A program made the position numbers and the translations under genes. A DNA stretch of 40,105 bases, from NCBI GenBank assembly GCA_900617105.1, contig UYFQ01000161.1:1-40105 (forward strand), read 5' to 3'. Shown here piece by piece: positions 3,901 to 40,105 of this stretch (position 1 is the first letter of the stretch; each line of letters opens with the position of its first letter). This DNA is from Hydrurus foetidus (lineage: Eukaryota). The notes under the pieces are model-generated. The model worked only from the letters and a program-made list of their open reading frames with translations. It did not search any database and was not told the DNA's origin.

Positions 3901-3960
3901 GGCCAACAACACCTCCATCAACGCAACCCACAGTGGTCTACCGCCCGCAGCCGCATATGA
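921..3960 (+). pseudogene. gag: Gypsy-1 gag with a long low-complexity R/D/N/Y-rich N-terminal region; frameshifted
   Basis: ATG at 921 (MPLSDDSSEI). Broken frames read RYDNDGRQYNDDRRND.... ORF 2314-3960 has the CCHC knuckle CNSCGHSDHLLKNC and resembles ORF 16544-17911. Confidence 0.75.
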
Positions 3961-4158
3961 TGGTACGTTACCTCATGTCACGGTGGTGGAGTCATTGGTA
4001 GTGGCGATACATGCTGCTAACACATGTAACCCTACCGATACACCACCACCTTTATGTATACTCAACTCTGATATACTCGTAACTGATACATTGGAGGTCT
4101 CAACCCCTTCCAATATATATCGGATAACACTAACAATGTTCTTCCCACATGTCTTCAC

Positions 4159-7990: not shown

Positions 7991-8313
7991 GTTCCCAAGG
8001 AACGACCTACACATTATCTTTTGAAGATTCCTCCTCATTTTTACAACGTTAAGTTGCTTTTCAGGAGGTTTAGTCAGTAAAAATCTGACATAAATGTGTA
8101 GGGGAACACTTAGATACAACACATCTAGGCACTCTCGTTTCTCACTTCCCCAATCTCTCACATGTACAAATATCTGTATACTTCGTACGTATTTATTACT
8201 GCATTTTTGTATTTTATTTTTATTTTTTTTATTATTATCTTTTTCTGCATTTTGCTTTCTCAAGCTTGAGTCGTATTTGTTTTGTAACACATTGTAGCTA
8301 GAGACACACCAAT

Positions 8314-8368
8314 AGAGAGAGAGGGAGAGGGAGAGAGAGATGAGAAAACGAGAGATAAGTAGGGGTAG
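8314..8368 (+). promoter_or_regulatory. Gypsy-1 polypurine tract region
   Basis: GA-rich run ending AGGGGTAG directly before the TGTGG start of the 3' LTR. Confidence 0.85.
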
Positions 8369-8569
8369 TGTGGCTCCCTCAGGGTCTGCTACCCCATTCA
8401 GCCGATTAGATGCTGTTTCCACCTTAGTACCTTCGTGTTCACAGCCACGACTATCAGTCACTAGCTAGTTTGTGCTGCTTTGCAGAAGTTACTAGCGTAC
8501 CTTCTGTTGCAACCCTAACTAACAAGCTTCTTTTAGCCTTTAGACCTCCCTTCTCTTTTGCCTTCCACA
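8369..8569 (+). repeat. Gypsy-1 3' LTR
   Basis: TGTGG...CCACA termini; repeat of window positions 1-191. Confidence 0.9.
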
Positions 8570-17911: not shown

Positions 17912-19821
17912 GTCTAATCACTTATCGATGTAAATCTCACTGAAAGTCAATCGAGATCGATAACCCCTGCACAGAATTTTTTTTCAAGAGCATCGCCTCG
18001 TTCGCAAACGGGTACTGTAACGTCAGTAACAACGAATAGAGAGATATTATCCAACTCTTGAACTGAAAAGTTCTATGGCGTGAATATGGCGTGAAAGCCA
18101 AATTTAGAGTGGTAGAAAAGTTGGTATACCTTTAAGGTAGAAGACGTTGCTCAACGTCGACGAAAAGAAGTCTGTAGACTAACTTTGTGTCTGAATCTGT
18201 GATTCGATCGACCAGCGGAGCAAGTCTTAAATGACTTCTGGGAAGGATAAATCAACTTCGACCAAAAATGTCAAGTTTGGAAGAGCCCAATGCACGGGGA
18301 TTCCAAGAAAGCAGGTAATCTGACTTTCTCTAACTTAGACTAGCTTCTCTGAGCCAAACGGCTCGAATTTCGTTGATCAGAAGCTCAGAAGTCTTATCTA
18401 CAGGTTGGGACGAGTAGATGGAATGAGAAGTAGTAGAGAAAAGGGTGGACTAATAGCGCTATTGTAGTCCGGCAGCCTGTGCAAGATCAAGGGGCCATTT
18501 TTTAACCGAAAAGCTCCCCCACAGTATCGCCAAAGTTGGACAACGTATTGATCACATTACGAAGGATTTGATAAGGATATCAATTTGCTCGAGGACCAAA
18601 TAAACGATCGGTTTCCACTAATCTGACTATTGTGAGTGTCATGGTGCTATCAATTTTTTCAAATTTTATTCCTTCGATCACAAGATCAACCTAAAGTTGG
18701 ATTATCCAACTTCAACTTTACAGCAACCTTCATTACTCAACTGCTCCTGGTAAACACCGACGTAACATGATTTCCATCTCTAATAATGACGCATTAGAAA
18801 CATTTTCAAGCTTAACTGTTGACAGGTTTAGTTATCTGAAGCTCAATTTTTGGTATCTACTCATACCATATATCACCATACAGGAATCTAATGGTGAACC
18901 ACAGCAAAGCAAAATCTCGCTTCAAAAAGGACTACAACAATTCGATAGCTTTCTGAAGAACGTTACAGAAGCTGTGTTGGAAAATGAGCACCTTCCGAAC
19001 AGGAAGTTTAAAAATACTATAGCTGGAATGTCGAGGACTATACCGATCTTACCCAACTGTAAATATGACGTTTGTACCAAGTACCGGATAAATACTATAC
19101 AGCTGTGATTATTACAGTGTAACAATGGCAATATACGTGATACGAATTGGCATTGAGGGATTGACTTGGTGCACATTGCACACCAATAACAATCTACAAA
19201 ATGTGTTCACTTATTATATCCTATCATGCTAATTGTTGATTATACAAATAGCTATATACAGCTATAACTAGCACTTATCACTGTTATAGACCGACAAGGC
19301 CGTTCTTATGTCGTTGTGTGTGTGTATGCGCTGTGTACTATCCGGAGTGTTGTACGTTACAGTGCGCATGAAAAAGTGTTTCATGCGCATGACACAATTC
19401 AATCTTCAATGTTCTGTTTTCTTTCTTTAGAGTAGTGTAGATAGGTGGCGCTGTAAGCTTCGTGACTAGGTCGAACAGGGACGACAGTCACAAGTTAAAT
19501 TATCGACTGATTGGAAAACGATACTCTTTCATTTCACGGGATTTGCACACCACTCATACTGGAGACTTCGTACGTGAAGTGGTTCAGGCTACAATTCACG
19601 GGAACGGTAAAAAATGTTGCCTTAAAATTTAAGGCAAGCTTCACCACATACGGGAAAAGGCGCTATTTCATGGTCCTACTGTAAAATCCGTTCCATAACA
19701 TTTAAAATTTCGAATTGTTTTGATAATAATATCGTACTCGTCACTACTTCTTCAAAGGAATCTTTCAATATCTCACAGCTCGCAATGCCTCTGCAAATCA
19801 GAGTTTGAAAGAAGGGCCGAA

Positions 19822-21294
19822 ATGATCTACAGTGTCAGTGAAATCAACGAGAGATTTTTGCTCCTTCACAGGTGCATGATGAAGGCTCTTCAAAGGCGCA
19901 AGCAGAGAAAAGCTGCCAGTGCCAATCGCAAAGTTTATAAACAACGTGCAAAACCTGAAATTCCAAGAGACAAACATCCAAATTACTGGCAATCAGCTTG
20001 GGGACAACTTGTTCAGCGTCTTGCAAGCATTGTGGATGGGCCGTCTATTACGTCTAGGGACGGCAAACTTATCAGGAGGAGGTTCAGAGTACCATACCAA
20101 GTCTACTGTAAACTAGTTCAAATGTGTGTGGAGAAAAAGCTGTTTGGAGAGAATTCGTCAGTGGAAACTGACATAGCCAATAGGCTAATCTGCCCAGTGG
20201 AGATTAAAATGTTAGCGGTGCTTCGAATACTGGGACGCAACTGGAATTTCGATGATATAGCTGAAGCTACACTTATGGGAGAAACTACAGCTAGGAGAGC
20301 ATTCCACCTGTTTTGTGAAAACTTTGCCACATACTTTTATGACAAATACGTTTACAGACCAAAAGATCAGCAGTTGAAAAAAGTGTTAGAAGTATTCGGG
20401 AAAATGGGACTTCCTGGATGCATTGGATCGACTGACTGCGTACACCTAAAGTGGGATAGATGCCCTGTCTCGTTGAATCAGGTCTGTTCTGGCAAAGAAG
20501 GTTATCCGTCCTTGGCATATTCCTGTACTGTTGATCATCACAGTCGTATACTCGGATCGACGAGTAGCTTTTATGGTGCACGCAACGACATAACAATTGT
20601 CCGACATGATACTTACATCACAGATGTGAGAAACAAAAAAGTGCACGAAGAAGTTGAGTATGATATCTTCATTAATGGAGTTCTAATACGCGTCAAAGGA
20701 GTCTACTATCTGTGTGATGGGGGATATCATCGATGGAGTTGTATGATTAATCCTATCAAGCATACAATATCAAGGGGGGATAGGCTGTGGTCTGAATGGG
20801 TGGAGTCTACTAGGAAAGATGTCGAATATACGTTCGGCATATTGAAGAGTCGATGGCGATTTCTTCGGAACGGTATTGTGCTACAAAATCAATCGTCTAT
20901 TGATTTTGCGTTTTTCACCTGTTGCATTCTACATAACTAAATTTTAGAGTTTGATGGTTTAGACAACAGATGGGAGGTGAATGTGGATTGGGATCAAATC
21001 AATCCGCAGCCGGATAACTCAGATGAAGGTTTTGATCTTGAGGGCGACGTTCCTAGTATTCAAGAAAGGCGTGTACTTAATAGGGTTGACCAATGGACGA
21101 GTGCAGTCGAGATTTCTGATGAGGCTAATCAGGCATTGGGGAACGAAATTGAGGTTGAGATCGATTTTGACTTTGAAACAAAGAGGCGCAGTTTAATTAA
21201 TCATTTTTCGCATGCTTATGACGCGGGGCTAGTGCATTGGCCAAGATGTTTTAACGAACAAAAACAAGCTCATTATAACAAAGGAAGCATGTAA
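19822..21294 (+). pseudogene. Harbinger DDE transposase with an in-frame stop at 20938-20940
   Basis: GCIGSTDCVH, GKEG, GARND, YYLCDGGY, RKDVEYTFGILKSRW, CCILHN*ILEFDG continuing in frame to 21294. Confidence 0.92.
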
Positions 21295-22657: not shown

Positions 22658-22960
22658 TTTGACGCTGATCCAAAAACTGTTTCGATGATATCTGTGATTA
22701 ATACGATGAAAAGCAGGGCCTGGACGCTTTATGGTAACTCTCAAATGTTTCCCATAAAACCATCGATTTTATGGAGGATCCCTGACACCTCCGTAGAATT
22801 TAAGTCAAAAATTCGCCCGTGAAACGCCCGTTTTCCGTAAAAAGCTTGCGCTATATCATACGGCAAAGATTTTAAGGCATCCGTGAATTGCAGCCTCACG
22901 GCGCGGTTGCAGAATACGGAATTCGCAACAACTTGAACTTGACACGGAATCTGGAATCTG

Positions 22961-23239
22961 TGTTGGGATATCCGGATTAGACTAGGATCTTGTACCCTGT
23001 GTGATGTATGATTGTTTTCATGCACGGGTGTACGTACATTCAGCGATAACATTGACCGCAACCCTCGCACTCATGTTATTCTACCTAGATGTAATCGACA
23101 GCACGTCACTGTCGTTTAATCCAACTTACCGAATAGAACGTCTTCTTCTCTTTTGAGCGAGCGTTGCTAGCAGTCGGAAGTGCAGGGATAGTTTGGGAAC
23201 TCGGAAGAAATTCCGTGTAAATCGCCCAGATTTCCAACA
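22961..23239 (+). repeat. Copia-B 5' LTR (279 bp)
   Basis: Matches 28717-28844 plus 36612-36762 with about 4 substitutions. Confidence 0.96.
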
Positions 23240-23250
23240 TAAACGACAGT
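23240..23250 (+). promoter_or_regulatory. Non-tRNA PBS (TAAACGACAGT) complementary to LTR 23108-23118
   Basis: Exact 11-bp inverted match; no TGG start. Confidence 0.8.
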
Positions 23251-23294
23251 CATCCTTAGATAGATTAGCTAGAAGTTGCAAAAGATTTGCAAGG

Positions 23295-24476
23295 ATGAGA
23301 GGACGAGGCGATGGAAGATTCCAGTCCCGTGGCGGGGGCAGGGGTCGATATGGTAGAGGGCAAGGAGAGCCTCATAAACCCATATCTAAAGGTAGGAAGC
23401 CCGAGGTAGGTGCTTACCTGGATTTGCCGCGAGGACAAGCGGCAGATCCAGAATCTGTGTTGAAATGGCTCGAATGTTTTCGAGTATATATGTACAGTAC
23501 TTATGAATCTACTGTAAAAGAAATAATAGGTATAGACGGGATCCTCTACGACTACGTAGAGCAGGTGGAACCTGCGGACCCGCCTGAAGGAGCAGGACTG
23601 GTCGCCATAGAGCGATGGAAAACTGCACGTAAGAAATATGAAGCTGCATCTGAATTGCTTATAAAAGACTGCGCGAAATTGTATGGTGTACTACTAGGTC
23701 AAATGTCAGAGGCGTCGCAGACGCGGGTGAACGAGATGCCCGCGGGAAAGAGAGCGATGGAGGAATGCGATCCCCTAGGTCTGTTGACATGTGTGGTGGC
23801 AACACACATGAACAACAAAAGGTATGGAGAAACATACAACATCATTACAGCAGTTAGAAACTTTTATAATAACAAAATGACTCAACACGAAGACCTAGCA
23901 GCTTACTATAGTAGGTGCAGGACTTTGCTATTCGTCAAGAGCGAAGCCTACAGGTTGGCAGACGAAGACGCACCAGAACACACAGATGAGTTCCATGCTG
24001 TCTTATTTATAACTGCACTGAATTCAAACTATTCAGACTATATTAATACGTTTAAAAATAAGGTTCGGCCATGGCCGCAGACCATGGCTGATGCCAACCA
24101 GGACGCGGCCAACTTCCTCATGGGAAGGCCCGTCCACGGAGGAGCTCCCCCGAACTCGGAGAAGCGAAACGTTTTCGCGGCCAGTCGGGGTGGGAGAGCG
24201 GGTTCCGGTGGGAGAGGCGGCAGAGGCCGCGGAGGCAATCAAGGAGCTGAGAAGGGAGGGTTCGACACCCCCGGCAGCGAGAGTACGGCGAGGGCAGGCA
24301 CTCCCTATAGGGATAGGGAGGCCACCCCGCAGAGAGAGAGAGGTGGTGCCGTACAGGAGTACGGTACCCGTTACGGAGCGTGTAACAACTGCGGGGAGGA
24401 GGGCCACTACGCGTACGAGTGTAAGAAGCCGCCGAGGAAGAACGCACCTGCGCGTCACACTTCCTCGGAAAAGTAA
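23295..24476 (+). CDS. gag: Copia-B gag with RGG-rich segments and a CCHC knuckle
   Basis: ATG 44 nt after the PBS; CNNCGEEGHYAYEC; also open in the second copy. Confidence 0.92.
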   Translation: MRGRGDGRFQSRGGGRGRYGRGQGEPHKPISKGRKPEVGAYLDLPRGQAADPESVLKWLECFRVYMYSTYESTVKEIIGIDGILYDYVEQVEPADPPEGAGLVAIERWKTARKKYEAASELLIKDCAKLYGVLLGQMSEASQTRVNEMPAGKRAMEECDPLGLLTCVVATHMNNKRYGETYNIITAVRNFYNNKMTQHEDLAAYYSRCRTLLFVKSEAYRLADEDAPEHTDEFHAVLFITALNSNYSDYINTFKNKVRPWPQTMADANQDAANFLMGRPVHGGAPPNSEKRNVFAASRGGRAGSGGRGGRGRGGNQGAEKGGFDTPGSESTARAGTPYRDREATPQRERGGAVQEYGTRYGACNNCGEEGHYAYECKKPPRKNAPARHTSSEK

Positions 24477-27400
24477 GTCCCTTATATGTTTTTTTACCTG
24501 ATTCACTAGCTAAGGATGTAAATGTTCCGTGTGGGGAAACCGGACTGCATGACGTATTTGCAACGTCGACCGGTTACCCTGCGTTTGTGCCATTGTTAGA
24601 TAAAGCATGCAGCTTGGAGAATTTTTGTCCACTGAACAGTAAAAATTGTGGGGGTGACCCTGTGATTTTTAGTGCGAATGTATATACACACAGTTCCACA
24701 TTCACAGACAGACAAGTGTTGTTAGATACATGTGCAGCAGAGTCAGTGTTTTGTAGTGGAGATTTATTTTATAGTATTATGCCGTCCGCTACCCCGATGA
24801 TTATTAATGGAGTGAACCCTCAGGGGGAACCCTTGATAATCACGGAGTGTGGCGAGACGGACTTCGGAACAGTTTACTACGATAGCAATTGTATAGCGAA
24901 TATATTATCCTTCGGTAACATAGTCAGCGTGAGCGAGTCAGTTAGCTATGACAGTGACCAGGATTGTTACAAAGTTAGGATGATTAAGTCAGGACCTGTA
25001 TATAGATTTGTCCATGATCAGTCTACGAACATATATCTATGCGACTTAGACAGAAATGTCAGTTACAAGAATGTATCGTTCGATAAATCGATCATGGTCA
25101 TGACAGTTAAGGATAAGAAGAAACTGTATACAGCTAGACAAGTTAAGTCAGCAGAGTTAGCTAGAGAGTATCAGAGAAAGTTAGGTTACGCCAGCCCAGG
25201 ACAGTTAATTAAATTAATAGGTCAGGGGAAATTAGATAAGAGTGACATAACAGCGCAAGATGTAGTTAGAGCATTAGATATTTTTGGACCAGATTTGGGT
25301 TCCCTTAAGGGGAAAACAACTAGTCACAAAACTGAGTTAGAAGAAGAGATGCCAGTTGTAGGTAGGCAGTTCCTAAACCAGGTTATGTACATAGATTTGA
25401 TGTTTGTGAACTCGATACCCTATCTAGTCACAGTTACAAATCCCTTGGAACATGTGATGATATGTAAACTCTCACGTACAAATAAGTCTTCCTTGTTGAT
25501 GAACATAGAGAGCAACATACATCACATTACTAAGTATGGATTTAAGATAACCATGATAAGAATAGACGGAGAGTCGGCAGTTAATACTTTAAGTTTTGAG
25601 AGTAAGCTAGCCGCACTAGGTATTATATTAGACAGTACTGGAGCAGGAGAAGCAGTAGCTGTAGTTGAGAGGAAGATTAGAGTGATCAAGGAACGTGTTC
25701 GTGCCATCATCAACACGGTACCTTTTTCACTGAGTGAGCTACTAGAAAGTTGGTTACTTAGATATGTTGTGAACAGATTAAATTTAGTACCAACTAGAAA
25801 CAGTGTAGCTTACGTCAGCCCCAGAGAGAAATTATACGGTAGAAAGATTAACGTAGATAAGGAGTTGAAACACGGTTTCGGTGATTACGTACAAGTACAT
25901 ACCGATTCCGTGGATAACTCAACTAAACCCAGATCACAGGCAGCAATAGCATTAGTTAGTGCAGGCAACCTAGAAGGTTCATGGTATTATCTGCTGTTAG
26001 CTAACTTAAAAGTAGTGAAGAGGACAAAGGCTACTAGCTTACCAATGACAGATGATGTGATCAGTTACCTCGATAAGTTAGCATCTGAGAGGAAATTAAA
26101 TATGTCAGTGAATGTCAAGCAACCTATTTTCGAACAGAGTAATCAAATCCTCGAAGACGATGGAAATGATTACTCCAACGATGAATTTGAGTTGCAGACA
26201 CCTGACATGATAACACCGTATAGTTATCCCACAGAAGACGAATTTGTGCATCATGAGATAGCAAATAATTTTGACTCATACGATGGCAATTCTGATGTAG
26301 CTTACGAATCAGAGTTCGAACAATTAACAGAATACATACCAAATGATATATACGTTAATGAAGGAGAGGATGTAGTGTATGACGATACACCAACTGACCC
26401 CGATGCATTAATGAATGATATATTTGGTGTAGACAGTGATGATGAGGTAGATACCCCCACCACAGAAAATAGCAAGTCAGAGGAAATTCTAGATAAACAA
26501 CCCAGACGTAGTGCTAGAAACCATCAGCCAGGTAGATGGAACAAGAGATTAGTAGGTTTAAGTATACCTAGCTACAAAGATTCAGTTATGTGTAAGTACA
26601 TGATGAACATGACCGTAACAGAGGGAGTACAGAAATTAGGCGAAATAGCCGTAGATTCCATTAAAAAGAGTTACAACAGATGTGTGATAAGAATGTGTGG
26701 GAGGCAGTTCACCTCAACAGTCTTAGTTACGATCAGAGGAAAAGTATCATAACCAGCAGTATGTTTTAAAAGATAAGTATACAGCAGATGGTAAATTTGA
26801 TAAGCTAAAATCTAGACTTGTAGCAGGAGGGCATTTACAAGATAGAAATATATATGATAACGGTTCATCACCAACTGTTAGCACCACTAGCGTATTTATT
26901 GTTGCTGCAATTGCTGCTAGTGAAAATCGAGCGGTCGCTACGATCGATTTTCCTGGTGCATTCCTCAACAGTGATATGCCACTAGACGGTGACCATGCAG
27001 TGCTGATGAGACTGAATAAATATTTGACTAACATATTAGTTAGCATTGACAAGTCTTATCAGAAGTATGTAAATGAGAAAGGAACAGTAGTAGTTAAACT
27101 TAAGAAAGCATTATATGGATGCGTAGAGTCAGCTAAGTTATGGTATGATAAAATATCATCAGATTTAACACAGCTAGGCTATAAGGTAAATCCATCAGAC
27201 ATATGTGTATTCAATAGGACTGAGCTAGATTCCACTCAGACTACTTTAGTTATCCATGTTGACGATATGATGATCAGCAGTAGGGATGAGAAGCGTATAG
27301 ATAGTATAATTTCAGAGATAGAAAAACTATACCCAGGCTTGACTAAGAGTAGAGGTAGAGTGTTGAATTATATAGGTATGACTTTTAACTTTGAGCAGTT

Positions 27401-28205
27401 AGGCAGAGTTGTCATATCCATGGAAGGTTTCATAAAAGACTTGTTAGACGATTGCATAGAGATTGTGGGGGTGTCTAGAACACCTGCCGACGATAATCTA
27501 TTTAAGATCGATCTTAACAGTCCTTTATTGAAAGATAAAGAACGTGAGAGATTCCACTCACTAACAGCTAAGTTGTTATATTTAAGTAAGAGAACCAGAC
27601 CAGACATACTGACATGTATAGCATATCTAACTAAAAGAGTCCTAGAACCTAGAACCGACGACTGGAATAAGTTAGCGCATACTATACGGTATATCAGAGA
27701 GACTAGAGCTACGCCGCTGACCCTAGAGGTAGATACTCCGGTTAAGGTTATAGCCTATATAGATGCATCATACGCTGTACATGCAGATAAGAAGAGTCAC
27801 ACTGGCTGTATTATAACACTAGGTAAGGGAGCAATATATGGTAAGAGTTCCACTCAGAAATTAAATACTACGTCTAGCACAGAGGCAGAACTAGTAGCTA
27901 TGACTGAAGCAGGTAATCAGGTTTTATGGACTAGGAATTTCCTTATCCATCAAGAGTATGAGGTAGGTCCAGCTTTAATTTACCAAGATAACCTATCCAC
28001 AATTCAGTTAGTTAAGAACGGTAGGTCCAACAGTGAAAGAACTAGACACATAGACATCAAGTTTTTCTTCCTGCATGACCGAATTAAATCAGACCATATT
28101 ATTGTAACCTACAAGAGTACTAAAGAAATGATTGCAGATTTGCTGACCAAGCCACTGCAGGGGAAGCTATTCCAAGAGCTACGTGACCAAGTGCTCAATG
28201 TATAA
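24425..28205 (+). CDS. pol: Copia-B pol (PR, IN, RT, RH) in the -1 frame relative to gag, with two frameshifts at ~26665 and ~26767
   Basis: LLDTCA; IDLMFV, DGE, ERKIR; KSRLVAGG, DFPGAFL, KALYG, HVDD; DASYA, SSTEAE, QDN, ADLLTK. Confidence 0.93.
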
Positions 28206-28716
28206 AGAAATTCAGGGGAGTTATTTATTGATTTTGACTTACCCACTTATAGCGCTTTTTCCAGATAAATTACAAAATAAAAATAAAAATCTGATTTCGC
28301 TTTAAATCAACATTTGTTTGATAGGACCGCGAGGGACATCGATACACCGCTTTTGCGACATCGAATGTCGACGTTTTAGTGGATTTAAGGGCACCAACAT
28401 CGGTTGGATCGAACTCGAGACCGGTCACCAGCTGAGGCTTTTTTGACGGTTTAGAAATAGTTTTTCTCGAGTAATACCTATCCACTAATCCAACCACCCA
28501 TGTTTTATTTTACACCATATCACGACGCAACTTGTCAATATTAAAAAATTCCGTGAAAAATATTTTTAAGAAAATTTACTGTTTACCATACCCTAACACT
28601 AAGTTCCCTATCTGAGTGTTGTGTGAAACATTATGAACAATAACCAATAAGTATACTATACAAGCATATGCTAATTAACATTTTCACTTATTCAAACAAT
28701 AACCATCATGGGGGTG

Positions 28717-28844
28717 TGTTGAGATATCCGGATTAGACTAGGATCTTGTACCCTGTGTGATGTATGATTGTTTTCATGCACGGGTGTACGCACATTCAGC
28801 GATAACATTGACCGCAACCCTCGCACTCATGTTATGCTACCTAG
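28717..28844 (+). repeat. Copia-B 3' LTR, left part
   Basis: Matches 22961-23088 and breaks after CCTAG. Confidence 0.95.
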
Positions 28845-29122
28845 TGTCTGAAATCCACGGTTCAGGTAGCTGCGAAGCGTACGGGAACGTTCTGAGTCTC
28901 GTAAAATAACTAGGTGATAGTCAAGTACTTGTTATTAAAACTTGTGCGCGGCGTCCCTGTTCACCGTACACGAAGCTTAGTGTTCGCAACACTAACTAAC
29001 TTATATATATACGCATATCGAATCGCACATTCAAAGTGTAGTGCGTTACTTTCAGGCCTGAAAGTAACGTACGTAAGTACACCTCTCTACTAACACCAGT
29101 CCTACACACGTAATATCCAACA
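28845..29122 (-). repeat. Copia-C 3' LTR
   Basis: Direct repeat of 36329-36606. Confidence 0.96.
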
Positions 29123-29223
29123 CACCCCTAGGACTTGCGTTGTTTCACACATCTCATTCAAACAGTATATAGCACACATCATCTGTATATTCACGCATTG
29201 TAAGGTGTAAGTAATATATCGCA

Positions 29224-31588
29224 TTACTTCCATCCCGTCAGACACTCTCTCTCATATATGAACTGCGACCCTTGTAACGGCTTAGTCAGTACGTTCGCGT
29301 ACATCTCTTTAGTTCCCTTGTGCACCACGGTCGCCTCCTTCTTCTCCACCCGCTCTCGCAACCAGAAATATCTGATGGAGATATGCCGAGTTCTCTCAGC
29401 TACAGATCTTCCCCTCTCCATGAGAGCCATACAGGACGTGTTGTCCTGGTATACCGTAATTGGCGCTACCCTGTGCCCTTGCGCCAGCAGGAAGTTCCGG
29501 ATGTACAACCCTTGATTCGCCGAGTCCGATAGAGCGATCAGCTCCGCTTCCGTGCTCGATTTGGTCACAATGCTCTGCTTGCACGATTTACAGTGGATAG
29601 CTCCAACCTCTCCTATCACGACATAGCTCCCTGTGTGTGACTTGCCGTCCCCGTGCACCCCGTATGCGGCATCCACGTACAGCCGTACGCACACCCCCAA
29701 TTTCCCCGGTCTCAGGATAACCCCTCTCTCCCTAGTGTACGCGATGTATTGCACCATCCGCTTCAACTTCTCTTCGTCGTCAACGGTACACTTTGTCACC
29801 CGAGTCGCAAGGAACGCAACAGCGGTAAGGCACTCCGGTCTCGCACGCTTCGCCAGATATGTGAGTTTGGCCACCACACTATGGAACCATGATCTTTGCG
29901 TTTCCGACACCAGTACCGCACCATCTCTGGTGTCGAACAGTCCACTGGTGGCAGGGCTTCTAGAGTGTCCAACGATCCCGCTGTACGCTATGACGTCCTC
30001 GACGTATCCCTGCATAGTCATTTTAACTTGTCCTCGAACGGATATATCAAATACCATACCAAGATAATTCAGCACGGGTCCGTCCGCAGACGTTATTTCC
30101 CCATACCTTTTCTTCATGAATCCCTTTAGGCCCATAATCATTTCCTCGCTTTCGCTTGTGATGATGAGGTCGTCGACGTGCACGGCCACTGTGCATTGCA
30201 CTCCATTCGGGTCCCTCTTATTGTAAACACATATCTCATATTCGTTTCTCTTAAAACCGGCGTCCGTCAGTGATGCAGATAGGTTATTATACCACAGTGC
30301 TGCAGACTCAACACACCCGTACAGTGCTTTCTCGAGCCGTACCACCGTACATCCTCTGTCGTCCGTTTACGAGCCGTACGTTCCATCTAGCTCAGCCAGC
30401 ATGGCTGACATTGTCGGGTCTAGTCGCATATACACAATTATTTTTCCCATCGTTGCATTTAGGAATGCACCCCCGATGTCCAGCACGCTGCCTTTCCTAT
30501 TCTCATGCGCCGCTACCGCGAACACTGTCATGACCGCACTAGTCGACACTGTAGGCGAGGATATGTCATCGTATAAATCCTTGTCCTGCTGGTTGCCTCC
30601 AGCCACCAGTCTAGCTTTGAGCTTCTCAAACTTCCCAGTGGGGAGGTACTTCTCCTTAAGGAACATCTGTGATCGGATGATACCCCTCTTCTCTGTTACA
30701 CTCAGCGACGACACGTCTACCGGGGTCCATACTCTTTTGTCGAGCATCTGCTTCAATTCCTTCTTTATCACCCTCTTAGCTTCGTCACCCCTACTCTTGA
30801 GTGCTTCTTTCACCGAGATATTCATCACACGTTCTTCGTACACGCCTCCGCTCTGGTACGTACGATCAGCGTACAGCGCCACGTCGTGATCACCGCCGTA
30901 TGTTCTCGAGAGATTTGTTCCAGCTCCCACGTCGAATCCCGTCGGCACGGCCGTGTACATAGGTGTTTGTGCATTCCCTGGTGGGGTAACCGGCACCGCC
31001 GCGTCAGGATGATGATACGATTCAGGTGCAGCCGGCCCGAACTCCTGGAGCTCCCCGACATCCAAGTCTTCCATATTGAATTCTGCACCCTGCACGATCG
31101 GCACATCGTAGTCTTCAGGGTATCCTATGATGTTGTTCACCATCGCTGGGTCGAATTGGTACTCCTCTCTCTCGCCCTCGTCCAGATCCAGCTGGGTGTA
31201 GGGGTTGGCCGTGACATCCGGGTCCAGGTTAGCCGCAGGATCTTGGGTCGGCCGTATGTACGTGGGTTCTTCAGTTCGTCGCAACCCTCCTTCACTGATA
31301 CTTTGATTATCTTACCAGTACTGATCGACATCATCTTCACTGATCCTGTTCTGTTCCCCGTTGGCAGCATGACGATACAGTCTTCCGTCCTCGATTCCAT
31401 AGTGTTATTGGTATTCGGCACGGTGCATTGGGCATATTCCCCGAAGTCCATCTTCCCGTCCGTCTATCTACCAGAGAACATCACTCGCGGACTCTCCCCT
31501 GAGCCGCTGACCGACGAGACTTGGTAGTTCAACCTAGAGACACAAAACAGTACTAACATTGCCACGCCCAGGTATGTTAGAGTGAATG
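29224..31588 (-). pseudogene. pol: Copia-C integrase C-terminus, RT and RNase H; disrupted
   Basis: KARLVAGG, DIGGAFL, KALYG, HVDD, DAAYG, SSTEAE, QDN; in-frame stop at 30367-69 and a frameshift near 31290. Confidence 0.92.
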
Positions 31589-31701
31589 CCAGTGGGGGGC
31601 TAAACTGATACCGGGGCAAAACTGATACCGCTCTGTACTATACTCCGCACAATCAACTGACATACCAACCCTCCGTATATCACAATTCACATCGCGGTGA
31701 A

Positions 31702-33465
31702 ATGTCAACTTCTCCGCCATCGAATCCCGAGAGGCTCCCTAGTCCTTGGGGGAGACGGACACCAAAATTAAAATCGAATTCAATTTCGACAGCTGAGAAA
31801 GTTTGGCTTATTCATGAGATCTTCTATCATGGAGTATCTTCACGAGAACTCTCTGGACGCTATGGCATTTCCAGGAAAATATTGAATCTTTGGGTTAACA
31901 GATTCTCAAAGAATGGAAAGGTGCACGATGCTGGCAGACCAAAATTATTTGATTCTCCCGCGAAAGCAGAACTGAGATCGTCTGTTTCGGGCAATATTCA
32001 CAACACAGTAAAATCAGAGTTCGTTCGCAATTTACAGTCAGAGCACGTGAAAGCAGTCGTCAAAACAAAAGCTGTTGCTGGATCATCGGTCAAGCCTATC
32101 TCACGGAGGTCAATAGCACGTTACATTGATGCCATCGGTCTCAAAGTCGGTAATGCGGAGCAGACCACCGACGCAAGAGCTCTCGCTACTTCGGATAAGC
32201 TCAATGCTGTTACCGTCGCTGTGGCGCACTTCTTGATGATGCCTTTGACAGTTCCTGATCTAGCGATCAATGCCGATGGGACTTCATATCAAACTTCGGG
32301 TGGCCTAACAGACAAGGTTCAGGTTCTCTATGACCCACTAGAGAGGGTTGAGAAGAAAGGACCGTTGAAAGTCATGGCAGTGAAAGGGTCTACCTTGACA
32401 GCATTTTTCATCAAGTTCTATATGTGTATCACTGCTATGGGTGTCTCTGCTCCTCCTGTTTACATTATTGCCGACGACAACATGGTGGAGGGGACAATAG
32501 ACTATCATGAGGTACCCGGTCTGGGAATCGGGACTGATATACTGTCGACTGGTTGGATAGTATTTTCTAAAACTCGAAGCGTCAACCAGGAGTTCTATAG
32601 ATGGTGGTTCTCAACTGTCTTCATCAAGTTTGTCACTGACATAAGGATACTAAATCAAATACCTCTGACGACACCAGCTTATTTTACACTTGATGGGGAG
32701 GATGTTCAGATCAAGCCGTTGAGAACCACTGAGGTTGCCAACATGTGCTTAGAACACTATATCGTCATTGGGAAGTTGCCTGCCTCTACAACCTCAATCT
32801 ACCAGCCGTGCGATGTTGGGACATGTTTTATGGCATCCAAAACAAAAAAAGGGACTTAAAAATATCAAGGATATACTGATTTCCGAATCTACCGAGCGTC
32901 ACAAAAACTTCATCAAGCTGCATGAAACTTTCGTTGGGAAGAAAATGTCTGCGGCGCATGTGAAAGCAATAGCAGAGGGACTGCATGTAGTGAAACATAT
33001 AATTCAGTCAACTTTGAAATCAGACACAATTACCGATTCATTCAGTACGTGCGGCCAGTTCGACAGAAAGGGCGGGGGATGCGATGTTGAGAAAATTTTG
33101 GGTCAGTGCAAAACTGCTTTGAGATCACGAGAGTTTGGGAGCACATGCCATTCCTTTGCAACCAGATGAAGACCAATGGGGAGTTGTCTATGAAGGACAT
33201 GGAACGCTTAGATATGGACAACATGTCCAGGGCAAATGGTAGATGCATTGATGATCTCGTCCTCAACCGTCGAAGATTTGTATTCCTAACTAACTGCGCA
33301 TTTATCGCTAGTGAGGACGACAAGAAGCTGGCGAAAGAAGCACTCGAGACAGAGAAGGTTGCCAAAGCTGTCAAGCGCAAAGCAGATGCAGAGTTAAAGA
33401 AGCAGAACCCCAAGCCGAACAAAAGAGCAAAAAAGGCAGGAGTAGTAGCAGTAGAAGATATTTAA
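31702..33465 (+). CDS. pogo-like transposase with frameshifts at ~32848 and ~33120
   Basis: N-terminal HTH and GRPK linker; INADGT, TLDG, LPASTTSIYQPCDVG, ITDSFSTCG; basic C-terminus. Confidence 0.85.
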
Positions 33466-33522
33466 TCTATTTGTAAATAAACGGATAATTCAGAATCATT
33501 ATGAACAGTTTGAGCTTCATCT

Positions 33523-34028
33523 TCAGACAACAGCAGAGTGCGCGTCAGATGTTTTAAATACTCCAGGATGAAAGCAGGTAAGATAGCGCTTTAGTGATCT
33601 CCTCGAAATCTTAACAGGATCAACAACGTCAGTATTATCGTCAGCTGCATCAACTTTGCCCAATCTCAGGCGGGTTGCAAGGAATTCCTCTTTGATTGCC
33701 GAGGTAAGGTGATCGTCATTTTCGAACGTCATATCTACGATGGAAGTTTCAATTTTCTGTTGGCTTTCAGCATCAAGAACTCGCGGTCTGCCCGGCAGCA
33801 TTCTGAGATAGGATCTTTTACGCATCCTCTGAACAAGGATATTGATATACTTTCTTTGGATGTTGTATCTTTTTGCAATGTCCGCCGCGATATCTTTTTG
33901 CAATATCTTTTTTCTTTCTTCAAGACTCTACTTGTTATCCATTTTTTCTGTTGAAGCGTTGGCAAACCGCCCGAAAATTCAATCCAGTGGTTGTAGGCAT
34001 CTTCGTCCACTGGCACTGTTGCATCCAT
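33523..34028 (-). CDS. Stand-alone paralog of the transposase DNA-binding domain (~170 aa; 1-bp frameshift at ~33910)
   Basis: DIAKRYNIQRK, GRPRVLD and ISRRSLKRYL align with ELSGRYGISRK, GRPKLFD and ISRRSIARYI of ORF 31702. Confidence 0.78.
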
Positions 34029-34155
34029 GGTGTTCTGATCGACGCCGGCGATGTCCTAATTGATTGTTGTGAGGGTTGGTATGTCAGTTGATTGTGCGGA
34101 GTAAAGTACAGAGCGGTATCAGTTTTGCCCCGGTATCAGTTTAGCCCCCCACTGG

Positions 34156-36302
34156 AATGGTAGTTGATGAGCGATGTATGCTCGCAACCTTTCCTTTACC
34201 GTCTGTATCTTACGTTCGATTCTCGCCACATGACCCCCTGCCCCGGCGATATCGACTTCCATACCCAACATGTTGAGGTCCTGCTTAATCTTCCCCACTG
34301 CCCCCTCACCGTCACTCATTATCATTCTCGTAACAAAGTTTCTGGAGGCCAGGGTCGCAACGAGTCCGTCGATTCCCTTCTTTACGACGGCTGCCGACCT
34401 CGGACCCTATGCTGAGTCGAATGCCGACAGAGTCACAGCCATTGTTAGGTCCAACGGTGTGGCCAGTCCGATCAGAGACGGCACACCGTCTACGAACATC
34501 ACATCAACCGACAAGACCTGTTTCACTTGCACCACAGCAGCACCCACTGTAATGTCTGCACAGATCGAGACTCTCTTTTTGGTTTTGCTCTTCATCGTTG
34601 CTATATCCTTCCCATATATATCCTCAGCTACAGCGAAGTCTCTAGCTGTCACGTCAAAGTTGGTACCGCGAGTCGCGATGTCGATGGCGTTTCTCACCGA
34701 TGGGAATCCCATCTTAGCCAATAGCAGTCGTGCTCTGTCTGCCCCAGCGATCTCGCGCTTAGTATATCTCGTTAAGTTGTTCTCAACGGTTTCGATCATC
34801 GCATGATCGCTCGGCTCAGGGTAGGTCGTAGGCTCATCCTGCACCATCGTCTTCACATGACAACAGTGGAACCTCCCTTCACTTCCACTAACGTTCTTCC
34901 TACAGAACGAGTATACTCTCCGGCTCCCAGCCGGTTTGAGTATGAACCGGTCGTTCACCTTATCATAGCTCACGTCGTTGCCTCCGTCAACCATTACAGC
35001 ATACGACAAGATGTTTGCTGTGGCTTCTTTGCTGAAGTAGCATCTCCCTACATCTAGGAAGTCTCCTTTCTGGTCTATTGCAACTCCAGACGCTTTGGCT
35101 TGAACCCCGTTCAGCACAACTTTCGTCTCCGACTGTCTCACATTGCTCAGCAGCTCCCGATTGCAGAATACATTCACTGATGCCTGACTGTCCAGAAGCA
35201 CATCGTCCCTTGAGAAAAGGACCCTTTCCACGGTTGTCACGTAAGCTATGTCCTCATCTTCCAGATCTTCCTCGCTATCGTCGCTACCTGACGGTCCTGA
35301 TGTCAGAAACGCTTTCTCGCTTCCCTTCTTTTTCTTACAATCTCTGGCGTGGTGCCCTATCTTCCCGCACACGAAGCATTCCACGATGGATTTGCTTTTC
35401 TTCTTCGTGTCGGGTTTGCCCTTTCCGGCTGGCTTCAGATCGTCGGTCTTGCCGGCATGGTCTGTGTCTGTTACCAGAGCAGAGTGGGTATCGGTATCTG
35501 TACCGGGTGCCCGTGAGAACCCTGGGTCGTTTGTCACATAACCGGTTGCAATGCGCACAGCGGCGATGACCGTCGGCGGGTATGCGTTTGGATCCAGTCT
35601 GTTCGCTGCGTTGCGCATATCTCCCACCATGTTCCCATATCTTGCCTTGTCCAATTTGTACACGAAGTCCATTGCACGTTTGGACTCTGTGATTGCAGGG
35701 ACCCCAGCACCTCTGCAAGCGAGTACCTGCGCTTCAAATCCAATCATGAAATTAGCTAGTTGTTCTCTTTCACCTTGTTAGAGGACCTCATAGCGACACT
35801 CTTGCTCTTTCACGTTGAGCAGTTGCAGGTGGTCTCCTTCGCCGTTTATGTGGGTTAGATGGGTGCGTCTGATGAGATCCCACAGGATCACGCAGTCCTT
35901 GCTGATGTTTGCGGCCGCGTATTCGGCTTGTTCCTGCACCTTACACCGTGATGCGGGTGACATCTTCTGCCACATCAGAGACCAGATTTTGGCCTCGTCT
36001 TCTTTTGCTTGTATGACAGACTTCATACGGGTCGTAAAGACCGTCTCTTTAGTTTTGGTGATTGCCACGGCCTCCGGTTCCCCCTCCGCGGGTACCGGAT
36101 ACACCACTGTAAAATCCTCGTTGCGAGGCAGTGGTGGTACATATCTGATGTTCGTCAGCAGGAAATTGGCAGTGAGCCCATACACGGCGCCCACTGACGT
36201 GCTCATTTCGAGATTCCACGCTACGATGTTGTTGAATTTTCCTATGCGGAGCATGCATTCTGGTGTCGAATCCTTTGCTTCCGCTGCGCGTTTGGGCGGC
36301 AT
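34156..36302 (-). pseudogene. Copia-C gag-PR-IN, one reading frame with stops at 35778-80 and 34407-09
   Basis: The three ORF pieces are in the same frame; CFVCGKIGHHARDC, LLDSQAS, VDVMFV, SDGE, ERKIQ. Confidence 0.92.
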
Positions 36303-36317
36303 CTCTATGCTGTCCTT

Positions 36318-36328
36318 AAGTTTTAATA
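36318..36328 (-). promoter_or_regulatory. Copia-C non-tRNA PBS (TATTAAAACTT) complementary to its LTR at 36417-36427
   Basis: Exact 11-bp inverted match immediately after the 5' LTR. Confidence 0.78.
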
Positions 36329-36606
36329 TGTCAGAAATCCACGATTCAGGTAGCTGCGAAGCGTACGGGAACGTTCTGAGTCTCGTAAAATAACTAGGTG
36401 ATAGTCAAGTACTTGTTATTAAAACTTGTGCGCGGCGTCCCTGTTCACCGTACACGAAGCTTAGTGTTCGCAACACTAACTAACTTATATATATACGCAT
36501 ATCGAATCACACATTCAAAGTGTAGTGCGTTACTTTCAGGCCTGAAAGTAACGTACGTAAGTACACCTCTCTACTAACACCAGTCCTACACACGTAATAT
36601 CCAACA
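36329..36606 (-). repeat. Copia-C 5' LTR
   Basis: TGTTGG...CTGACA on the minus strand; repeat of 28845-29122. Confidence 0.96.
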
Positions 36607-36762
36607 TTTAGATGTAATCGACAGCACGTCACTGTCGTTTAATCCAACTTTCCGAATAGAACGTCTTCTTCTCTTTTGAGCGAGCGTTGCTAGCAGTCGG
36701 AAGTGCAGGGATAGTTTGGGAACTCGGAAGAAATTCCGTGTAAATCGCCCAGATTTCCAACA
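36607..36762 (+). repeat. Copia-B 3' LTR, right part (including the Copia-C TSD)
   Basis: Matches 23084-23239; followed by the TSD ATCTG. Confidence 0.95.
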
Positions 36763-37545
36763 ATCTGGACTCTGTATGTTGGAATTCTGGGCGAATTACA
36801 CGGAATTTCTTCCGAGTTCCCAAACGATCCCTGCACTTCCGACTGCTAGCAACGCTCGCTCAAAAGAGAAGAAGACGTTCTATTCGGTAAGTTGGATTAA
36901 ACGACAGTGACATGCTGTCGATTACATCTAGCTAGCATAACATGAGTGCGAGGGTTGCGGTCAATGTTATCGCTGAATGTACGTACACCCGTGCATGAAA
37001 AACAATCATACATCACACAGGGTACAAGATCCTAGTCTAATCCGGATATCCCAACACACCCCCATGATGGTTATTGTTTGAATAAGTGAATATGTTAATG
37101 AGCATATGCTTATATAGTATACTTATTGGTTATTGTTCATAATGTTTCACACAACACTCAGATAGGGAGCTTAGTGTTAGGGTATGGTAAACAGTAAATT
37201 TTCTTTAAAATATTTTTCACGGAATTTTTTTAAATATTGACAAGTTGCGTCGTGATATGGTGAAAAAGAAAACATGGGTGGTTGGATTAGTAAATGGGTA
37301 TTGCTCGAGAAAAACTATTTGTAAACCGTCAAAAAAGCGTCAGCTGGTGACCGGTCTCGAGTTCGATCCAACCGATGTTGGTGCCCTTAAATCCACTAAA
37401 ACGTCGACATTCGATGTCGCAAAAGCGGTGTATCGATGTCCCTCGCGGTCCTATCAAACAAATGTTGATTTAAAGCGAAATCAGATTTTTTATTTTTATT
37501 TTGTATTTTTATCTAGAAAAAGCGCTATAGGTGGGTAAGTCAAAA

Positions 37546-38246
37546 TCAATAAATATCTAATGCTCTGACTACAACTTGTGCTGTTATGTCGCTCTTATCT
37601 AATTTCCCCTGACCTATTAATTTAATTAACTGTCCTGGGCTGGCGTAACCTAACTTTCTCTGATACTCTCTAGCTAACTCTGCTGACTTAACTTGTCTAG
37701 CTGTATACAGTTTCTTCTTATCCTTAACTGTCATGACCATGATCGATTTATCGAACGATACATTCTTGTAACTGACATTTCTGTCTAAGTCGCATAGATA
37801 TATGTTCGTAGACTGATCATGGACAAATCTATATACAGGTCCTAACTTAATCATCCTAACTTTGTAACAATCCTGGTCACTGTCATAGCTAACTGACTCG
37901 CTCACGCTGACTATGTTACCGAAGGATAATATATTTGCTATACAATTTCTATCGTAGTAAACTGTTCCGAAGTCCGTCTCGCCACACTCTGTGATTATCA
38001 AAGGTTCCCCCTGAGGGTTCACTCCATTAATAATCATCGGGGTAGCGGACGGCGTGGTATATAAAATAAATCTCCACTACAAAATACTGACTCTGCTGCA
38101 CATGTATCTAACAACACTTGTCTATCTGTAAATGTGGAACTGTGTGTATATACATTCGCACTAAAAATCACAGGGTCACCCCCACAATTTTTACTGTTCA
38201 GTGGACAAAAATTCTCGAAGCTGCATGCTTTATCTAACAAAGGCAC
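37546..38246 (-). pseudogene. Copia-B2 protease and pre-integrase remnant
   Basis: Near-identical to 24587-25283; 1-bp frameshift at ~38058; ends at the deletion junction. Confidence 0.92.
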
Positions 38247-38356
38247 AAACGCAGGGTAACCGGTCGACGTTGCAAATACGTCATGCAGTCCGGTTTCCCC
38301 ACACGGAACATTTACATCCTTAGCTAGTGAATCAGGTAAAAAAACATATAAGGGAC

Positions 38357-39544
38357 TTACTTTTCCGAGGAAGTGTGACGCGCAGGTGCGTTCTTCCTCG
38401 GCGGCTTCTTACACTCGTACGCGTAGTGCCCCTCCTCCCCGCAGTTGTTGCAAGCTCCGTAACGGGTACCGTACTCCTGTACGGCACCAACTCTCTCTCT
38501 ATGCGGGGTGGCCTCCCTATCCCTATAGGGAGTGCCTGCCCTCGCCGTACTCTCGCTGCCGGGGGTATCGTACCCTCCCTTCTCAGCTCCGCTGTAGCTG
38601 TTTCCTCCGCGGCCTCTGCCGCCTCTGCCTCCGGAACCCGCTCTCCCACCCCGACTGGCCGCGAAAACGTTTCGCTTCTCCGAGTTCGGGGGAGCTCCTC
38701 CGTGGACGGGCCTTCCCATGAGGAAGTTGGCCGCGTCCTGGTTGGCCTCAGCCATGGTCTGCGGCCATGACCGAACCTTATTTTTAAACGTATTAATATA
38801 ATCTGAATAGTTTGAATTCAATCCAGTTATAAATAATACAGAATAGAACTCATCTGTGTGTTCTGGGGCTTCTTCGTCCGCCATCCTGTAGGCTTCGTTC
38901 TTCACGAACAGCAGCGTCCTACACCTACTATAATAAGCAGCTAGGTCCTCGTGTGCAGTCATTTTATTTGTATAGAAATTTCTAACTGCAGTTATAGTGT
39001 TAAATGTTTCTCCATACCTTTTGTTGCTCATGTGTGTTGCAATCACACATGTCAACAGACCTAGTGGATCACACTCCTCCATAGCTCTCTTCCCAGACGG
39101 CATCTCGTTGACCCTGGTCTGTGAAGCCTCTGACATTTGACCTAATAATACACCATACAATTTCGCGCAGTCTTTTGTAAGTAAATCATCAGCAGCATCA
39201 TATTTCTTACGTGCAGTTTTCCATCGTTCTATCGCGACAAGACCGGCTCCCTCCGGCGGGTCTTCAGGTTCCATCTGCTCCACGTAATCGTAGAGGATGC
39301 CGTCTATACCTATAATCTCTTTAATAGAAGATTCGTAAGTACTGTACATATATACTCTAAAACATTCGAGCCATTTCAACACGGCTTCCGGATCTGCCGC
39401 TTGGCCTCGTGGCAGATCCAGGTAAGCACCTACCTCGGGCTTCCTACCTTTAGGTATGGGTTTATGGGGCTCGCCTTGCCCCCTACCATATCGACCCCTG
39501 CCCCCGCCACGGGACTGGAATCTCCCATCGCCTCGTCCTCTCAT
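38357..39544 (-). CDS. gag: Copia-B2 gag, intact
   Basis: 395 aa, colinear with 23295-24476; CCHC knuckle intact. Confidence 0.93.
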   Translation of the reverse strand: MRGRGDGRFQSRGGGRGRYGRGQGEPHKPIPKGRKPEVGAYLDLPRGQAADPEAVLKWLECFRVYMYSTYESSIKEIIGIDGILYDYVEQMEPEDPPEGAGLVAIERWKTARKKYDAADDLLTKDCAKLYGVLLGQMSEASQTRVNEMPSGKRAMEECDPLGLLTCVIATHMSNKRYGETFNTITAVRNFYTNKMTAHEDLAAYYSRCRTLLFVKNEAYRMADEEAPEHTDEFYSVLFITGLNSNYSDYINTFKNKVRSWPQTMAEANQDAANFLMGRPVHGGAPPNSEKRNVFAASRGGRAGSGGRGGRGRGGNSYSGAEKGGYDTPGSESTARAGTPYRDREATPHRERVGAVQEYGTRYGACNNCGEEGHYAYECKKPPRKNAPARHTSSEK

Positions 39545-40105
39545 CCTTGCAAGATTTTTGCAATTTTCTAGCTAATCTATCTAAGGATGACTGTCGTTTA
39601 TGTTGGAATTCTGGGCGAATTACACGGAATTTCTTCCGAGTTCCCAAACGATCCCTGCACTTCCGACTTCTAGCAACGCTCGCTCAAAAGAGAAGAAGAC
39701 GTTCTATTCGGTAAGTTGGATTAAACGACAGTGACATGCTGTCGATTACATCTAGCTAGCATAACATGAGTGCGAGGGTTGCGGTCAATGTTATCGCTGA
39801 ATGTACGTACACCCGTGCATGAAAAACAATCATACATCACACAGGGTACAAGATCCTAGTCTAATCCGGATATCCCAACACTAGAGTGGTGAAGCAACCT
39901 GGAATTCTGGATCCAAGTTTTTTTTAAATCCGGATTATTTTTCATGATCGGATCCGTGGTGGAGCATGTGAATTCCGGAATTCCGGATCCATGGTACCCC
40001 CAAGAAACCAGTGGGTTCGACTTCTCCCTAGTGCACATATGGGTGAAGAATTCTGAATTATAATATCGACTCAAAATTGATCATGGACTAAAAGCTTTCG
40101 CCAAA

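What the first reader, a model, noticed from the sequence alone, without database searches (positions are those of the whole stretch)
23108..23250. tRNA-independent self-priming signature in Copia-B, an 11-nt PBS that pairs with its own LTR
Seen: the 5' LTR (...CCAACA) is followed by TAAACGACAGT rather than a TGG-type tRNA PBS. This is the exact reverse complement of ACTGTCGTTTA at 23108-23118 inside the LTR, and the pairing stops at 11 bp on both sides. The arrangement is retained in the second copy (39590-39600 with 39722-39732). Known: the fission-yeast Ty3/Gypsy element Tf1 primes reverse transcription with the first 11 nt of its own mRNA, whereas Ty1/Copia elements normally use tRNA. Inference: transcription starts at A23108 (initiator-like TCACT context) and the RNA primes itself. 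I recall a similar proposal for diatom CoDi-type Copia elements, so novelty needs a literature check.
Basis: partly seen in the sequence, partly recalled or inferred. Interest (0 to 1): 0.85.

Follow-up and report, generated by a model that had tools for sequence, protein, structure and literature searches.

The report
Self-priming Copia retrotransposon lineage
Two unrelated jumping genes in this DNA, and most of their testable relatives, carry a short stretch that pairs with their own terminal repeat where others bind a host tRNA, so this lineage likely starts copying itself from the front end of its own RNA.

Summary
The 11 bases after the 5' LTR (23240-23250) are the exact reverse complement of 23108-23118, and the same is true in the second copy (66 of 100,000 shuffles match it). 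Of 17 relatives with a visible LTR/primer-site junction (RT 25-57% identical), 16 show a perfect 9-16-base match to their own LTR. One of these is doubtful, one was a blind test, and the 17th is ambiguous. Across families the longest match was 9 bases (1 of 342 pairs), and 4 distant Copia controls gave 3-4 bases. The match starts at an initiator-like YCA in 10 of 15 (1.4 expected). Tf1-like self-priming is likely (0.8). No start site, cut or primer was observed, and one Tf1 helper duplex is unsupported. Self-priming is shown for Tf1 and predicted for plant Copia TAR (PMC6317226). I found no paper on it for this lineage, but this scan noted it earlier in diatom-type DNA. The host is undetermined, and the window copy is broken.

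The parts
22961..23239 (+). 5' LTR of element B (279 nt, TG...CA); predicted U3 up to 23107, R-U5 from about 23108
   Evidence: 5-bp target-site duplication at 22956-22960 and 36763-36767
23106..23110 (+). Initiator-like TCACT; predicted transcription start at 23108 or 23109
   Evidence: sequence; YCA at the start of the pairing arm in 10 of 15 families; diatom TCAH(+1)W in PMC4686930; start not observed
23108..23118 (+). Predicted self-primer (first 11 nt of the RNA)
   Evidence: exact complement of 23240-23250; mean pair probability 0.95
23240..23250 (+). Primer-binding site, directly after the LTR, not of the TGG type
23251..23298 (+). Predicted leader hairpin next to the primer helix; it includes the gag start codon at 23295
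   Evidence: MFE fold only
23295..24476 (+). gag ORF with a CCHC zinc knuckle
24425..28205 (+). pol (protease- and integrase-like motifs read by eye, then Copia-type RT and RNase H); broken by frame changes near 26.7 kb in this copy
   Evidence: RVT_2 E 2.4e-22; no Pfam hit for the first ORF even at E 1; relatives hold Pol as one 1242-1243-aa ORF
28710..28716 (+). G-run / polypurine-tract end just before the 3' LTR
   Evidence: sequence
28717..28844 (+). 3' LTR of B, first part (interrupted by element C)
36607..36762 (+). 3' LTR of B, second part; holds the primer-sequence copy at 36631-36641
28845..36606 (-). Element C: a different Copia family (RT 46% identical to B) nested in B's 3' LTR; 278-nt LTRs, 275 of 278 identical
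36417..36427 (-). Element C predicted self-primer (LTR positions 180-190)
36318..36328 (-). Element C primer-binding site: 11 nt, exact complement of 36417-36427, letters unlike B's
   Evidence: 0 of 3000 shuffles
36777..39880 (-). Second copy B2, internally deleted; LTRs 279 of 280 identical; primer site 39590-39600, self-primer 39722-39732

Best explanation
The 11 bases right after the 5' LTR pair exactly with an 11-base stretch inside the same LTR, and this pair is likely a self-priming device: transcription is predicted to start at or beside 23108, so the RNA's first 11 bases would fold onto the primer site, be cut free (likely by the element's own RNase H, as in Tf1) and prime reverse transcription without a tRNA. 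The helix would close a 121-nt loop, which would be the template for the minus-strand strong-stop DNA. If the primer stays attached, as the title of a Tf1 paper states, plus-strand synthesis would copy it back into the primer site. That would explain why each family's site is a perfect copy of its own LTR whatever the letters. Shown: the pairing, its position, its recurrence with changed letters in a clade. Inferred: start site, cut, priming, re-templating.
For: Exact 11-bp pair beginning at the first base after the LTR, well above chance. A second family in the window has the same geometry with other letters. In 15 junctions from one RT clade (SH-aLRT 98 in a quick tree) the own-LTR match is 9-16 nt, against at most 15 of 3000 shuffles each. 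Cross-family pairs reach 9 nt once and 8 nt once in 342. Mean identity of the first 11 site bases between families is 3.5 of 11. Blind test: L106, with the LTR-end rule fixed beforehand, gave 14 nt starting at TTC|A. Four distant Copia junctions give 3-4 nt, and the window's Gypsy junction gives 5 nt. The LTR arm starts at YCA in 10 of 15 against 1.43 expected, 0 of 200,000 simulations, which fits an RNA 5' end. The helix is in the MFE fold in 14 of 15. RNase H acidic residues are present by eye. Precedent: Tf1 pairs its first 11 bases with the primer site and RNase H cuts between bases 11 and 12 (PMC7175516, passages).
Against: No start site, cut RNA or RNA-DNA primer was seen. The RNA-run contigs ran across LTR ends into flanks like DNA. 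Host tRNAs could not be searched (no genome). Tf1 needs two further duplexes (PMC10085805, passages): the one 3' of the primer site is not supported here (mean z +0.47 in 14 families), and the U5-side one is weak (mean z -0.67). L014 and L017 pair over only 9 nt, L024's helix is absent from its fold (0 of 10 pairs), and L083 matches only imperfectly by eye. All LTR ends but L106's were chosen after a scan for matches, and for L010, L024, L065 and L067 the choice leaned on the match. The three-position initiator window was chosen after seeing the contexts. One contig has a substitution at 23118 in a 3'-LTR copy. No compensatory change within family B was seen.
Confidence: 0.8

Rival explanations
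1. Self-priming in trans or without an RNase H cut: a short 5' piece of the element's RNA (an abortive capped transcript, or the 5' end cut from the second packaged RNA) anneals to the primer site.
For: Predicts the same complementarity and initiator position. The Tf1 helper duplexes are weak or absent. Loop length varies from about 47 to 208 nt.
Against: The in-cis helix dominates the predicted fold in 14 of 15 families. The cis route is the one shown for Tf1. This rival shares the main claim (no tRNA).
Confidence: 0.1
2. A structural long-range helix (packaging, translation control, or shielding the site), while a tRNA or tRNA fragment primes elsewhere or by displacement, like Ty1's pairing of nucleotides 1-7 with 264-270.
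For: Ty1, a tRNA-primed Copia-type element, pairs its 5' end with a site near the primer site (PMC3592414, passages). A predicted hairpin over the gag start adjoins the helix in B.
Against: The arm sits at the very first base after the LTR, where priming must start, and covers it fully. The sites share no sequence across 15 families, whereas tRNA-primed lineages share one or a few types (PMC6317226). The helices are perfect Watson-Crick runs, and the next distal pair is G-U in 0 of 15.
Confidence: 0.07
3. Chance or an assembly artefact.
For: A short match; LTR ends partly chosen after seeing matches; many loci are collapsed metagenome contigs.
Against: 66 of 100,000 for B alone; repeated in element C, whose ends are fixed by two LTRs, and in the blind test; absent in controls.
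Confidence: 0.01

Closest known systems
Tf1/Tf2 of Schizosaccharomyces pombe and the Tf1/sushi group, including Tj1 and Tcn1 (Ty3/gypsy chromoviruses)
   Same: The primer site is complementary to the element's own LTR, 11 nt in both Tf1 and B, and lies right after the LTR's terminal CA; no tRNA match (PMC7175516, PMC10085805, PMC4600332, passages).
   Different: B is Copia-type (RVT_2; pol ends with RNase H, with no integrase or chromodomain after it). Arm length runs 9-16 nt across the clade. The third duplex of the 'pretzel' is not supported. The mechanism is shown for Tf1 and only predicted here.
Plant Ty1/copia TAR lineage (Houba, Osr-1)
   Same: Copia elements predicted to self-prime by the same criterion, at least 10 bp starting 0-5 bp after the LTR: 89% of 203 elements, 5-bp target duplication (PMC6317226, passages and supplement table).
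   Different: TAR was described in plants, mostly as one gag-pol ORF. B's relatives are environmental aquatic sequences with no named plant hit among those listed, and B has gag and pol in separate frames. No TAR sequence was in my tree, so an independent origin is inferred, not tested.
Diatom CoDi elements (CoDiI / CoDiII)
   Same: Divergent Copia elements of aquatic protists; gag look-alike clusters are commonest in Bacillariophyta, on few records.
   Different: Neither PMC2806351 nor PMC2774666 mentions priming. Membership was not tested, for lack of reference sequences.
Fungal GalEa conserved hairpin site (CHS)
   Same: A Copia lineage without a tRNA primer site, with a conserved self-complementary element after the LTR (PMC5445492, passages).
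   Different: The CHS pairs with a sequence downstream, and the authors found no LTR complement to it. Here the partner is inside the LTR and the letters are not conserved.

Membership tests
Ty1/copia LTR retrotransposons | LTRs TG...CA, target-site duplication, polypurine tract | tested here: met
Ty1/copia LTR retrotransposons | Copia-type RT (RVT_2) followed by RNase H at the end of pol | tested here: met
   RVT_2 E 2.4e-22, weak RVT_3
Ty1/copia LTR retrotransposons | Integrase upstream of RT | tested here: inconclusive
   No Pfam or PDB hit for 24425-26749; D-D-E-like motifs read by eye; no room for integrase after RNase H
Self-primed LTR elements (works like Tf1) | At least 10 nt starting 0-5 nt after the 5' LTR are complementary to the LTR | tested here: met
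   11 nt at offset 0; 14 of 17 junctions reach 10 nt or more
Self-primed LTR elements (works like Tf1) | The LTR arm is the 5' end of the RNA | tested here: inconclusive
   Initiator enrichment; only contigs, no start data
Self-primed LTR elements (works like Tf1) | RNase H cut after the primer; own RNA attached to strong-stop DNA | not testable with these tools
   needs RNA/cDNA end mapping
Self-primed LTR elements (works like Tf1) | No host tRNA or fragment matches the site | not testable with these tools
   No host genome; no TGG at the LTR end in 15 of 15
Tf1/sushi group | Ty3/gypsy domain order with chromodomain | tested here: not met
   RVT_2-type RT, pol ends at RNase H
Tf1/sushi group | Three-duplex 'pretzel' leader | tested here: not met
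   Downstream duplex mean z +0.47, U5-side duplex mean z -0.67, 14 families (rough energy test)
Plant TAR lineage | RT clusters with Houba/Osr-1; plant host | not testable with these tools
   No reference sequences; no plant-named hit among those listed
Diatom CoDi lineages | RT clusters with CoDi references; diatom host | tested here: inconclusive
   Gag look-alikes commonest in Bacillariophyta, phylum known for 7 and 1 members; no named host in 20 clusters looked up

The most novel reading that the evidence does not exclude
A large, old Copia clade of aquatic microbial eukaryotes (949 full-length polyproteins at E 1e-50 or better, not all necessarily in the clade) evolved tRNA-free priming independently of Tf1 and of plant TAR. 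It does so with a simpler RNA fold than Tf1's, and each replication cycle rewrites the primer site from the RNA's own 5' end, which frees the sequence to drift. This would be a self-priming Copia that can be tested in a lab microalga.
Probability: 0.5. Interest if true: 0.65.

Novelty: new variant of a known kind. Interest (0 to 1): 0.5.

Why it matters
The sources I read report self-primed reverse transcription as demonstrated for the Gypsy element Tf1, while for Copia (plant TAR) it is a sequence prediction. A further clade with the signature, in a different superfamily and apparently a different host group, would show that tRNA-free priming is common or arises repeatedly. This bears on the open question of whether hairpin priming or tRNA priming came first in LTR elements (raised in PMC3601003, passages). 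It would also imply that a Copia RNase H can cut an RNA duplex. It gives a precise, alignment-free prediction of transcription starts in these elements, and explains why tRNA-based LTR finders would miss their primer sites.

Tried and rejected
No own genome is held, so there was no search of host tRNAs or of further copies. No tRNA gene lies in the window, and no Rfam match at 22900-23400 up to E 1. Viral contigs gave no relatives with gag or RT alignments. The one metagenome scan gave only 2 loci, one with a junction. RNA runs X17-X20 are contigs that cross LTR ends into flanks, so they say nothing about a start site. In four DNA or unlabelled runs, none of the 40 listed substitutions fell in either arm, but 36 rows were not shown, so I draw no conservation figure. 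A DNA search of 4 binned genomes for family B found nothing. Attempts to name the host group failed: no named host in 20 clusters, an uninformative Atlas result for the nearby transposase, and 18S genes in 3 of 5 bins that were not classified. The careful tree did not finish; the quick tree is used. The bacterial labels of the loci are bin labels of contaminating eukaryotic contigs (my inference) and were ignored. Left out of the scan: 29 loci (L031-L060 except L059), of which 22 are parts of contigs scanned whole and 7 (L037, L050, L052, L054, L056, L058, L060) were not examined. L005 was dropped as the same family as L004. 18 of the 34 clade rows have no usable junction on their own contig. 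Literature: 8 answered searches plus one on initiators found no paper on self-priming in diatom or other protist Copia; most subscription journals are not covered, and I did not read the supplements of PMC2806351 or PMC2774666.

Full report
Observation. The 5' LTR of element B spans 22961-23239. The 11 bases after it are the exact reverse complement of 23108-23118, and the pairs just outside the helix are mismatches. Copy B2 on the minus strand has the same pair (39590-39600 and 39722-39732), but its LTR matches B's at 272 of 279 positions, so it is not independent. No dinucleotide shuffle of 3000 reaches 11 nt at the fixed position, and 66 of 100,000 do when the arm may start 0-5 nt after the LTR. 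Apart from the inverted LTR pair and the three primer-site pairs, 5 of 39,794 window positions show such a match.

Anatomy. B is a Copia-type element: gag with a CCHC knuckle (23295-24476), then pol with a Copia-type RT (RVT_2, E 2.4e-22) and RNase H at its end. Protease and integrase are read by eye only, as Pfam and PDB give no hit. Close relatives carry Pol as one ORF of 1242-1243 aa, whereas B changes frame near 26.7 kb. Its 3' LTR is split by element C, and B2 is internally deleted. B has a 5-bp target-site duplication. These copies are therefore probably inactive but young (B2's LTRs are 279 of 280 identical). Near-identical DNA occurs in biofilm, sediment, freshwater and glacier metagenomes (20 of 24 listed runs hold some of it, in 13 studies). 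The host was not determined. Gag look-alikes lean towards diatoms on very few records.

A second case in the window. Element C (28845-36606, minus strand, RT 46% identical to B) has LTR ends fixed by its two LTRs. The 11 bases after its 5' LTR (36318-36328) are the exact complement of LTR positions 180-190 (36417-36427), with letters unlike B's. The Gypsy element at the window start gives only 5 nt in the same test.

Relatives. I gathered relatives from one metagenome scan (2 loci), one scan of binned genomes (28 loci) and searches inside 20 of those bins. I scanned 70 loci and 4 window pieces; 29 loci were left out, 22 of them duplicates. A quick RT tree of 60 rows places B in a 34-row clade (SH-aLRT 98; the careful search did not finish). 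Fifteen rows of that clade, B and C included, have a readable LTR/primer-site junction, and each has a perfect match of 9-16 nt between the first bases after the LTR and its own LTR: 11, 11, 14, 16, 15, 15, 14, 9, 9, 15, 10, 14, 14, 10 and 11 nt, reached by 0-15 of 3000 shuffles. Sites paired with another family's LTR reach 9 nt once and 8 nt once in 342 pairs, and the first 11 site bases agree at 3.5 positions on average between families. One more row, L083, matches only imperfectly by eye, and 18 rows lack the junction. Four Copia junctions outside the clade give 3-4 nt. Two of those resemble the half-tRNA-iMet type of site (motif recalled; the type is described in PMC6317226). Caveat: I chose these LTR ends after the scan, and for L010, L024, L065 and L067 the choice leaned on the match. 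L024's helix is absent from its fold, and L065 sits on a long branch. A blind test was possible once: L106, fetched later by gag similarity and overlapping L003 from B's own four-row subclade, gave 14 nt with the end rule fixed beforehand. The total is 16 of 17 junctions with a perfect match of 9 nt or more, 14 of them 10 nt or more.

Is the LTR arm the RNA's 5' end? A YCA with its A within one base of the arm's start occurs in 10 of 15 families against 1.43 expected (0 of 200,000 simulations; the window was chosen after seeing the data), and L106 fits too. Five arms start right after TCA, matching the diatom initiator-like TCAH(+1)W of PMC4686930 (passages); four start on the A, as B does. 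For B this leaves 23108 or 23109. Contigs of a diverged family begin to align to the window at 23106 in 3 of 4 runs (listed pieces), which fits a U3/R boundary there but is only a hint. RNA-run contigs carried genomic flanks and gave no start. One of them has a substitution at 23118 in a 3'-LTR copy.

RNA fold. The predicted leader 23108-23300 folds at -57.4 kcal/mol (z -3.1) with the primer helix closed, a U5 stem ending 4 nt before the site, and a hairpin over the gag start. The primer helix is in the MFE fold in 14 of 15 families. Tf1 needs two more duplexes beside the site (PMC10085805, passages). In a rough energy test on 14 families, the U5-side duplex is weakly favoured (mean z -0.67) and the downstream one is not (mean z +0.47). 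Rfam has no match here.

Mechanism. Most likely (0.8), Pol II starts at the arm, the first 11 nt pair with the primer site, a cut after nt 11 frees a 3'-OH, and RT copies the 121-nt loop. The cut by the element's RNase H is taken by analogy from Tf1 (PMC7175516, passages). A Tf1 paper seen only as a title in reference lists states that the self-primer is not removed. If that holds here, plus-strand synthesis would rewrite the site from the primer each cycle, which accounts for perfect pairing with freely drifting letters (inference). Rivals are priming in trans by a short own-RNA piece (0.1), a Ty1-like structural helix with tRNA priming (0.07; PMC3592414, passages), and chance (0.01).

What is known. 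Self-priming is shown for Tf1 and proposed for the Tf1/sushi group. Within Copia it is predicted for the plant TAR lineage, 89% of 203 elements (PMC6317226, passages and supplement table). Fungal GalEa elements lack a tRNA site but have no LTR complement (PMC5445492, passages). The CoDi papers PMC2806351 and PMC2774666 do not mention priming (term searches of the main text), and my searches listed no paper on it for protist Copia. This scan has noted the same signature before: 31 findings in at least 6 other genomes, mostly called diatom-type (AI notes, not support), with no look-alike of this stretch.

Verdict. The feature is real and shared across a lineage. It works like Tf1 by prediction, but it is not a member of the Tf1/sushi group, and membership of TAR or CoDi is untested. 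It is a new variant of a known kind; interest 0.5.

Noticed in passing
window 28845-36606 (-): Element C, a second Copia family with its own 11-nt self-complementary primer site, is inserted inside B's 3' LTR; its flanks agree at only 3 of 5 target-duplication positions, and it holds extra sequence with an 88-nt inverted repeat (31586-31673 / 34071-34158).
   Followed up: partly
window 36609-36930: B's 3' LTR end and B2's 3' LTR lie tail to tail, 14 nt apart, forming a long inverted repeat; B2's flanks show no clean 5-bp duplication.
   Followed up: partly
window 24425-24476: gag and pol of B overlap by 52 nt in different frames, and several close relatives also have a separate Pol of about 1243 aa, while most other clade members have one 1500-1700-aa ORF; the expression mechanism is unknown.
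   Followed up: no
window 23251-23298: A predicted hairpin stacked on the primer helix hides the gag start codon; it might couple priming and translation.
   Followed up: no
window 1-8567: Gypsy element whose sequence after the 5' LTR (from 184) has neither TGG nor an LTR complement over 5 nt; its primer is unexplained.
   Followed up: partly
window 19699-21294: Harbinger-type transposase (Plant_tran, DDE_Tnp_4) interrupted by a stop at 20938-20940.
   Followed up: partly
L066:5116-5130 and L085:4765-4780: Two distant Copia elements share a site beginning AGTTAC after the LTR end, neither self-complementary nor TGG-type; possibly an unusual tRNA-fragment primer.
   Followed up: no
runs X8 and X17 on window 23239/22960: Contigs join an LTR end to an LTR start with 34 or 14 bases between them: closely spaced tandem insertions or circle junctions.
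   Followed up: no
G001, G002, G013: Bins labelled as bacteria hold many eukaryotic Copia contigs (70, 14 and 33 matches), that is, heavy eukaryotic contamination.
   Followed up: no
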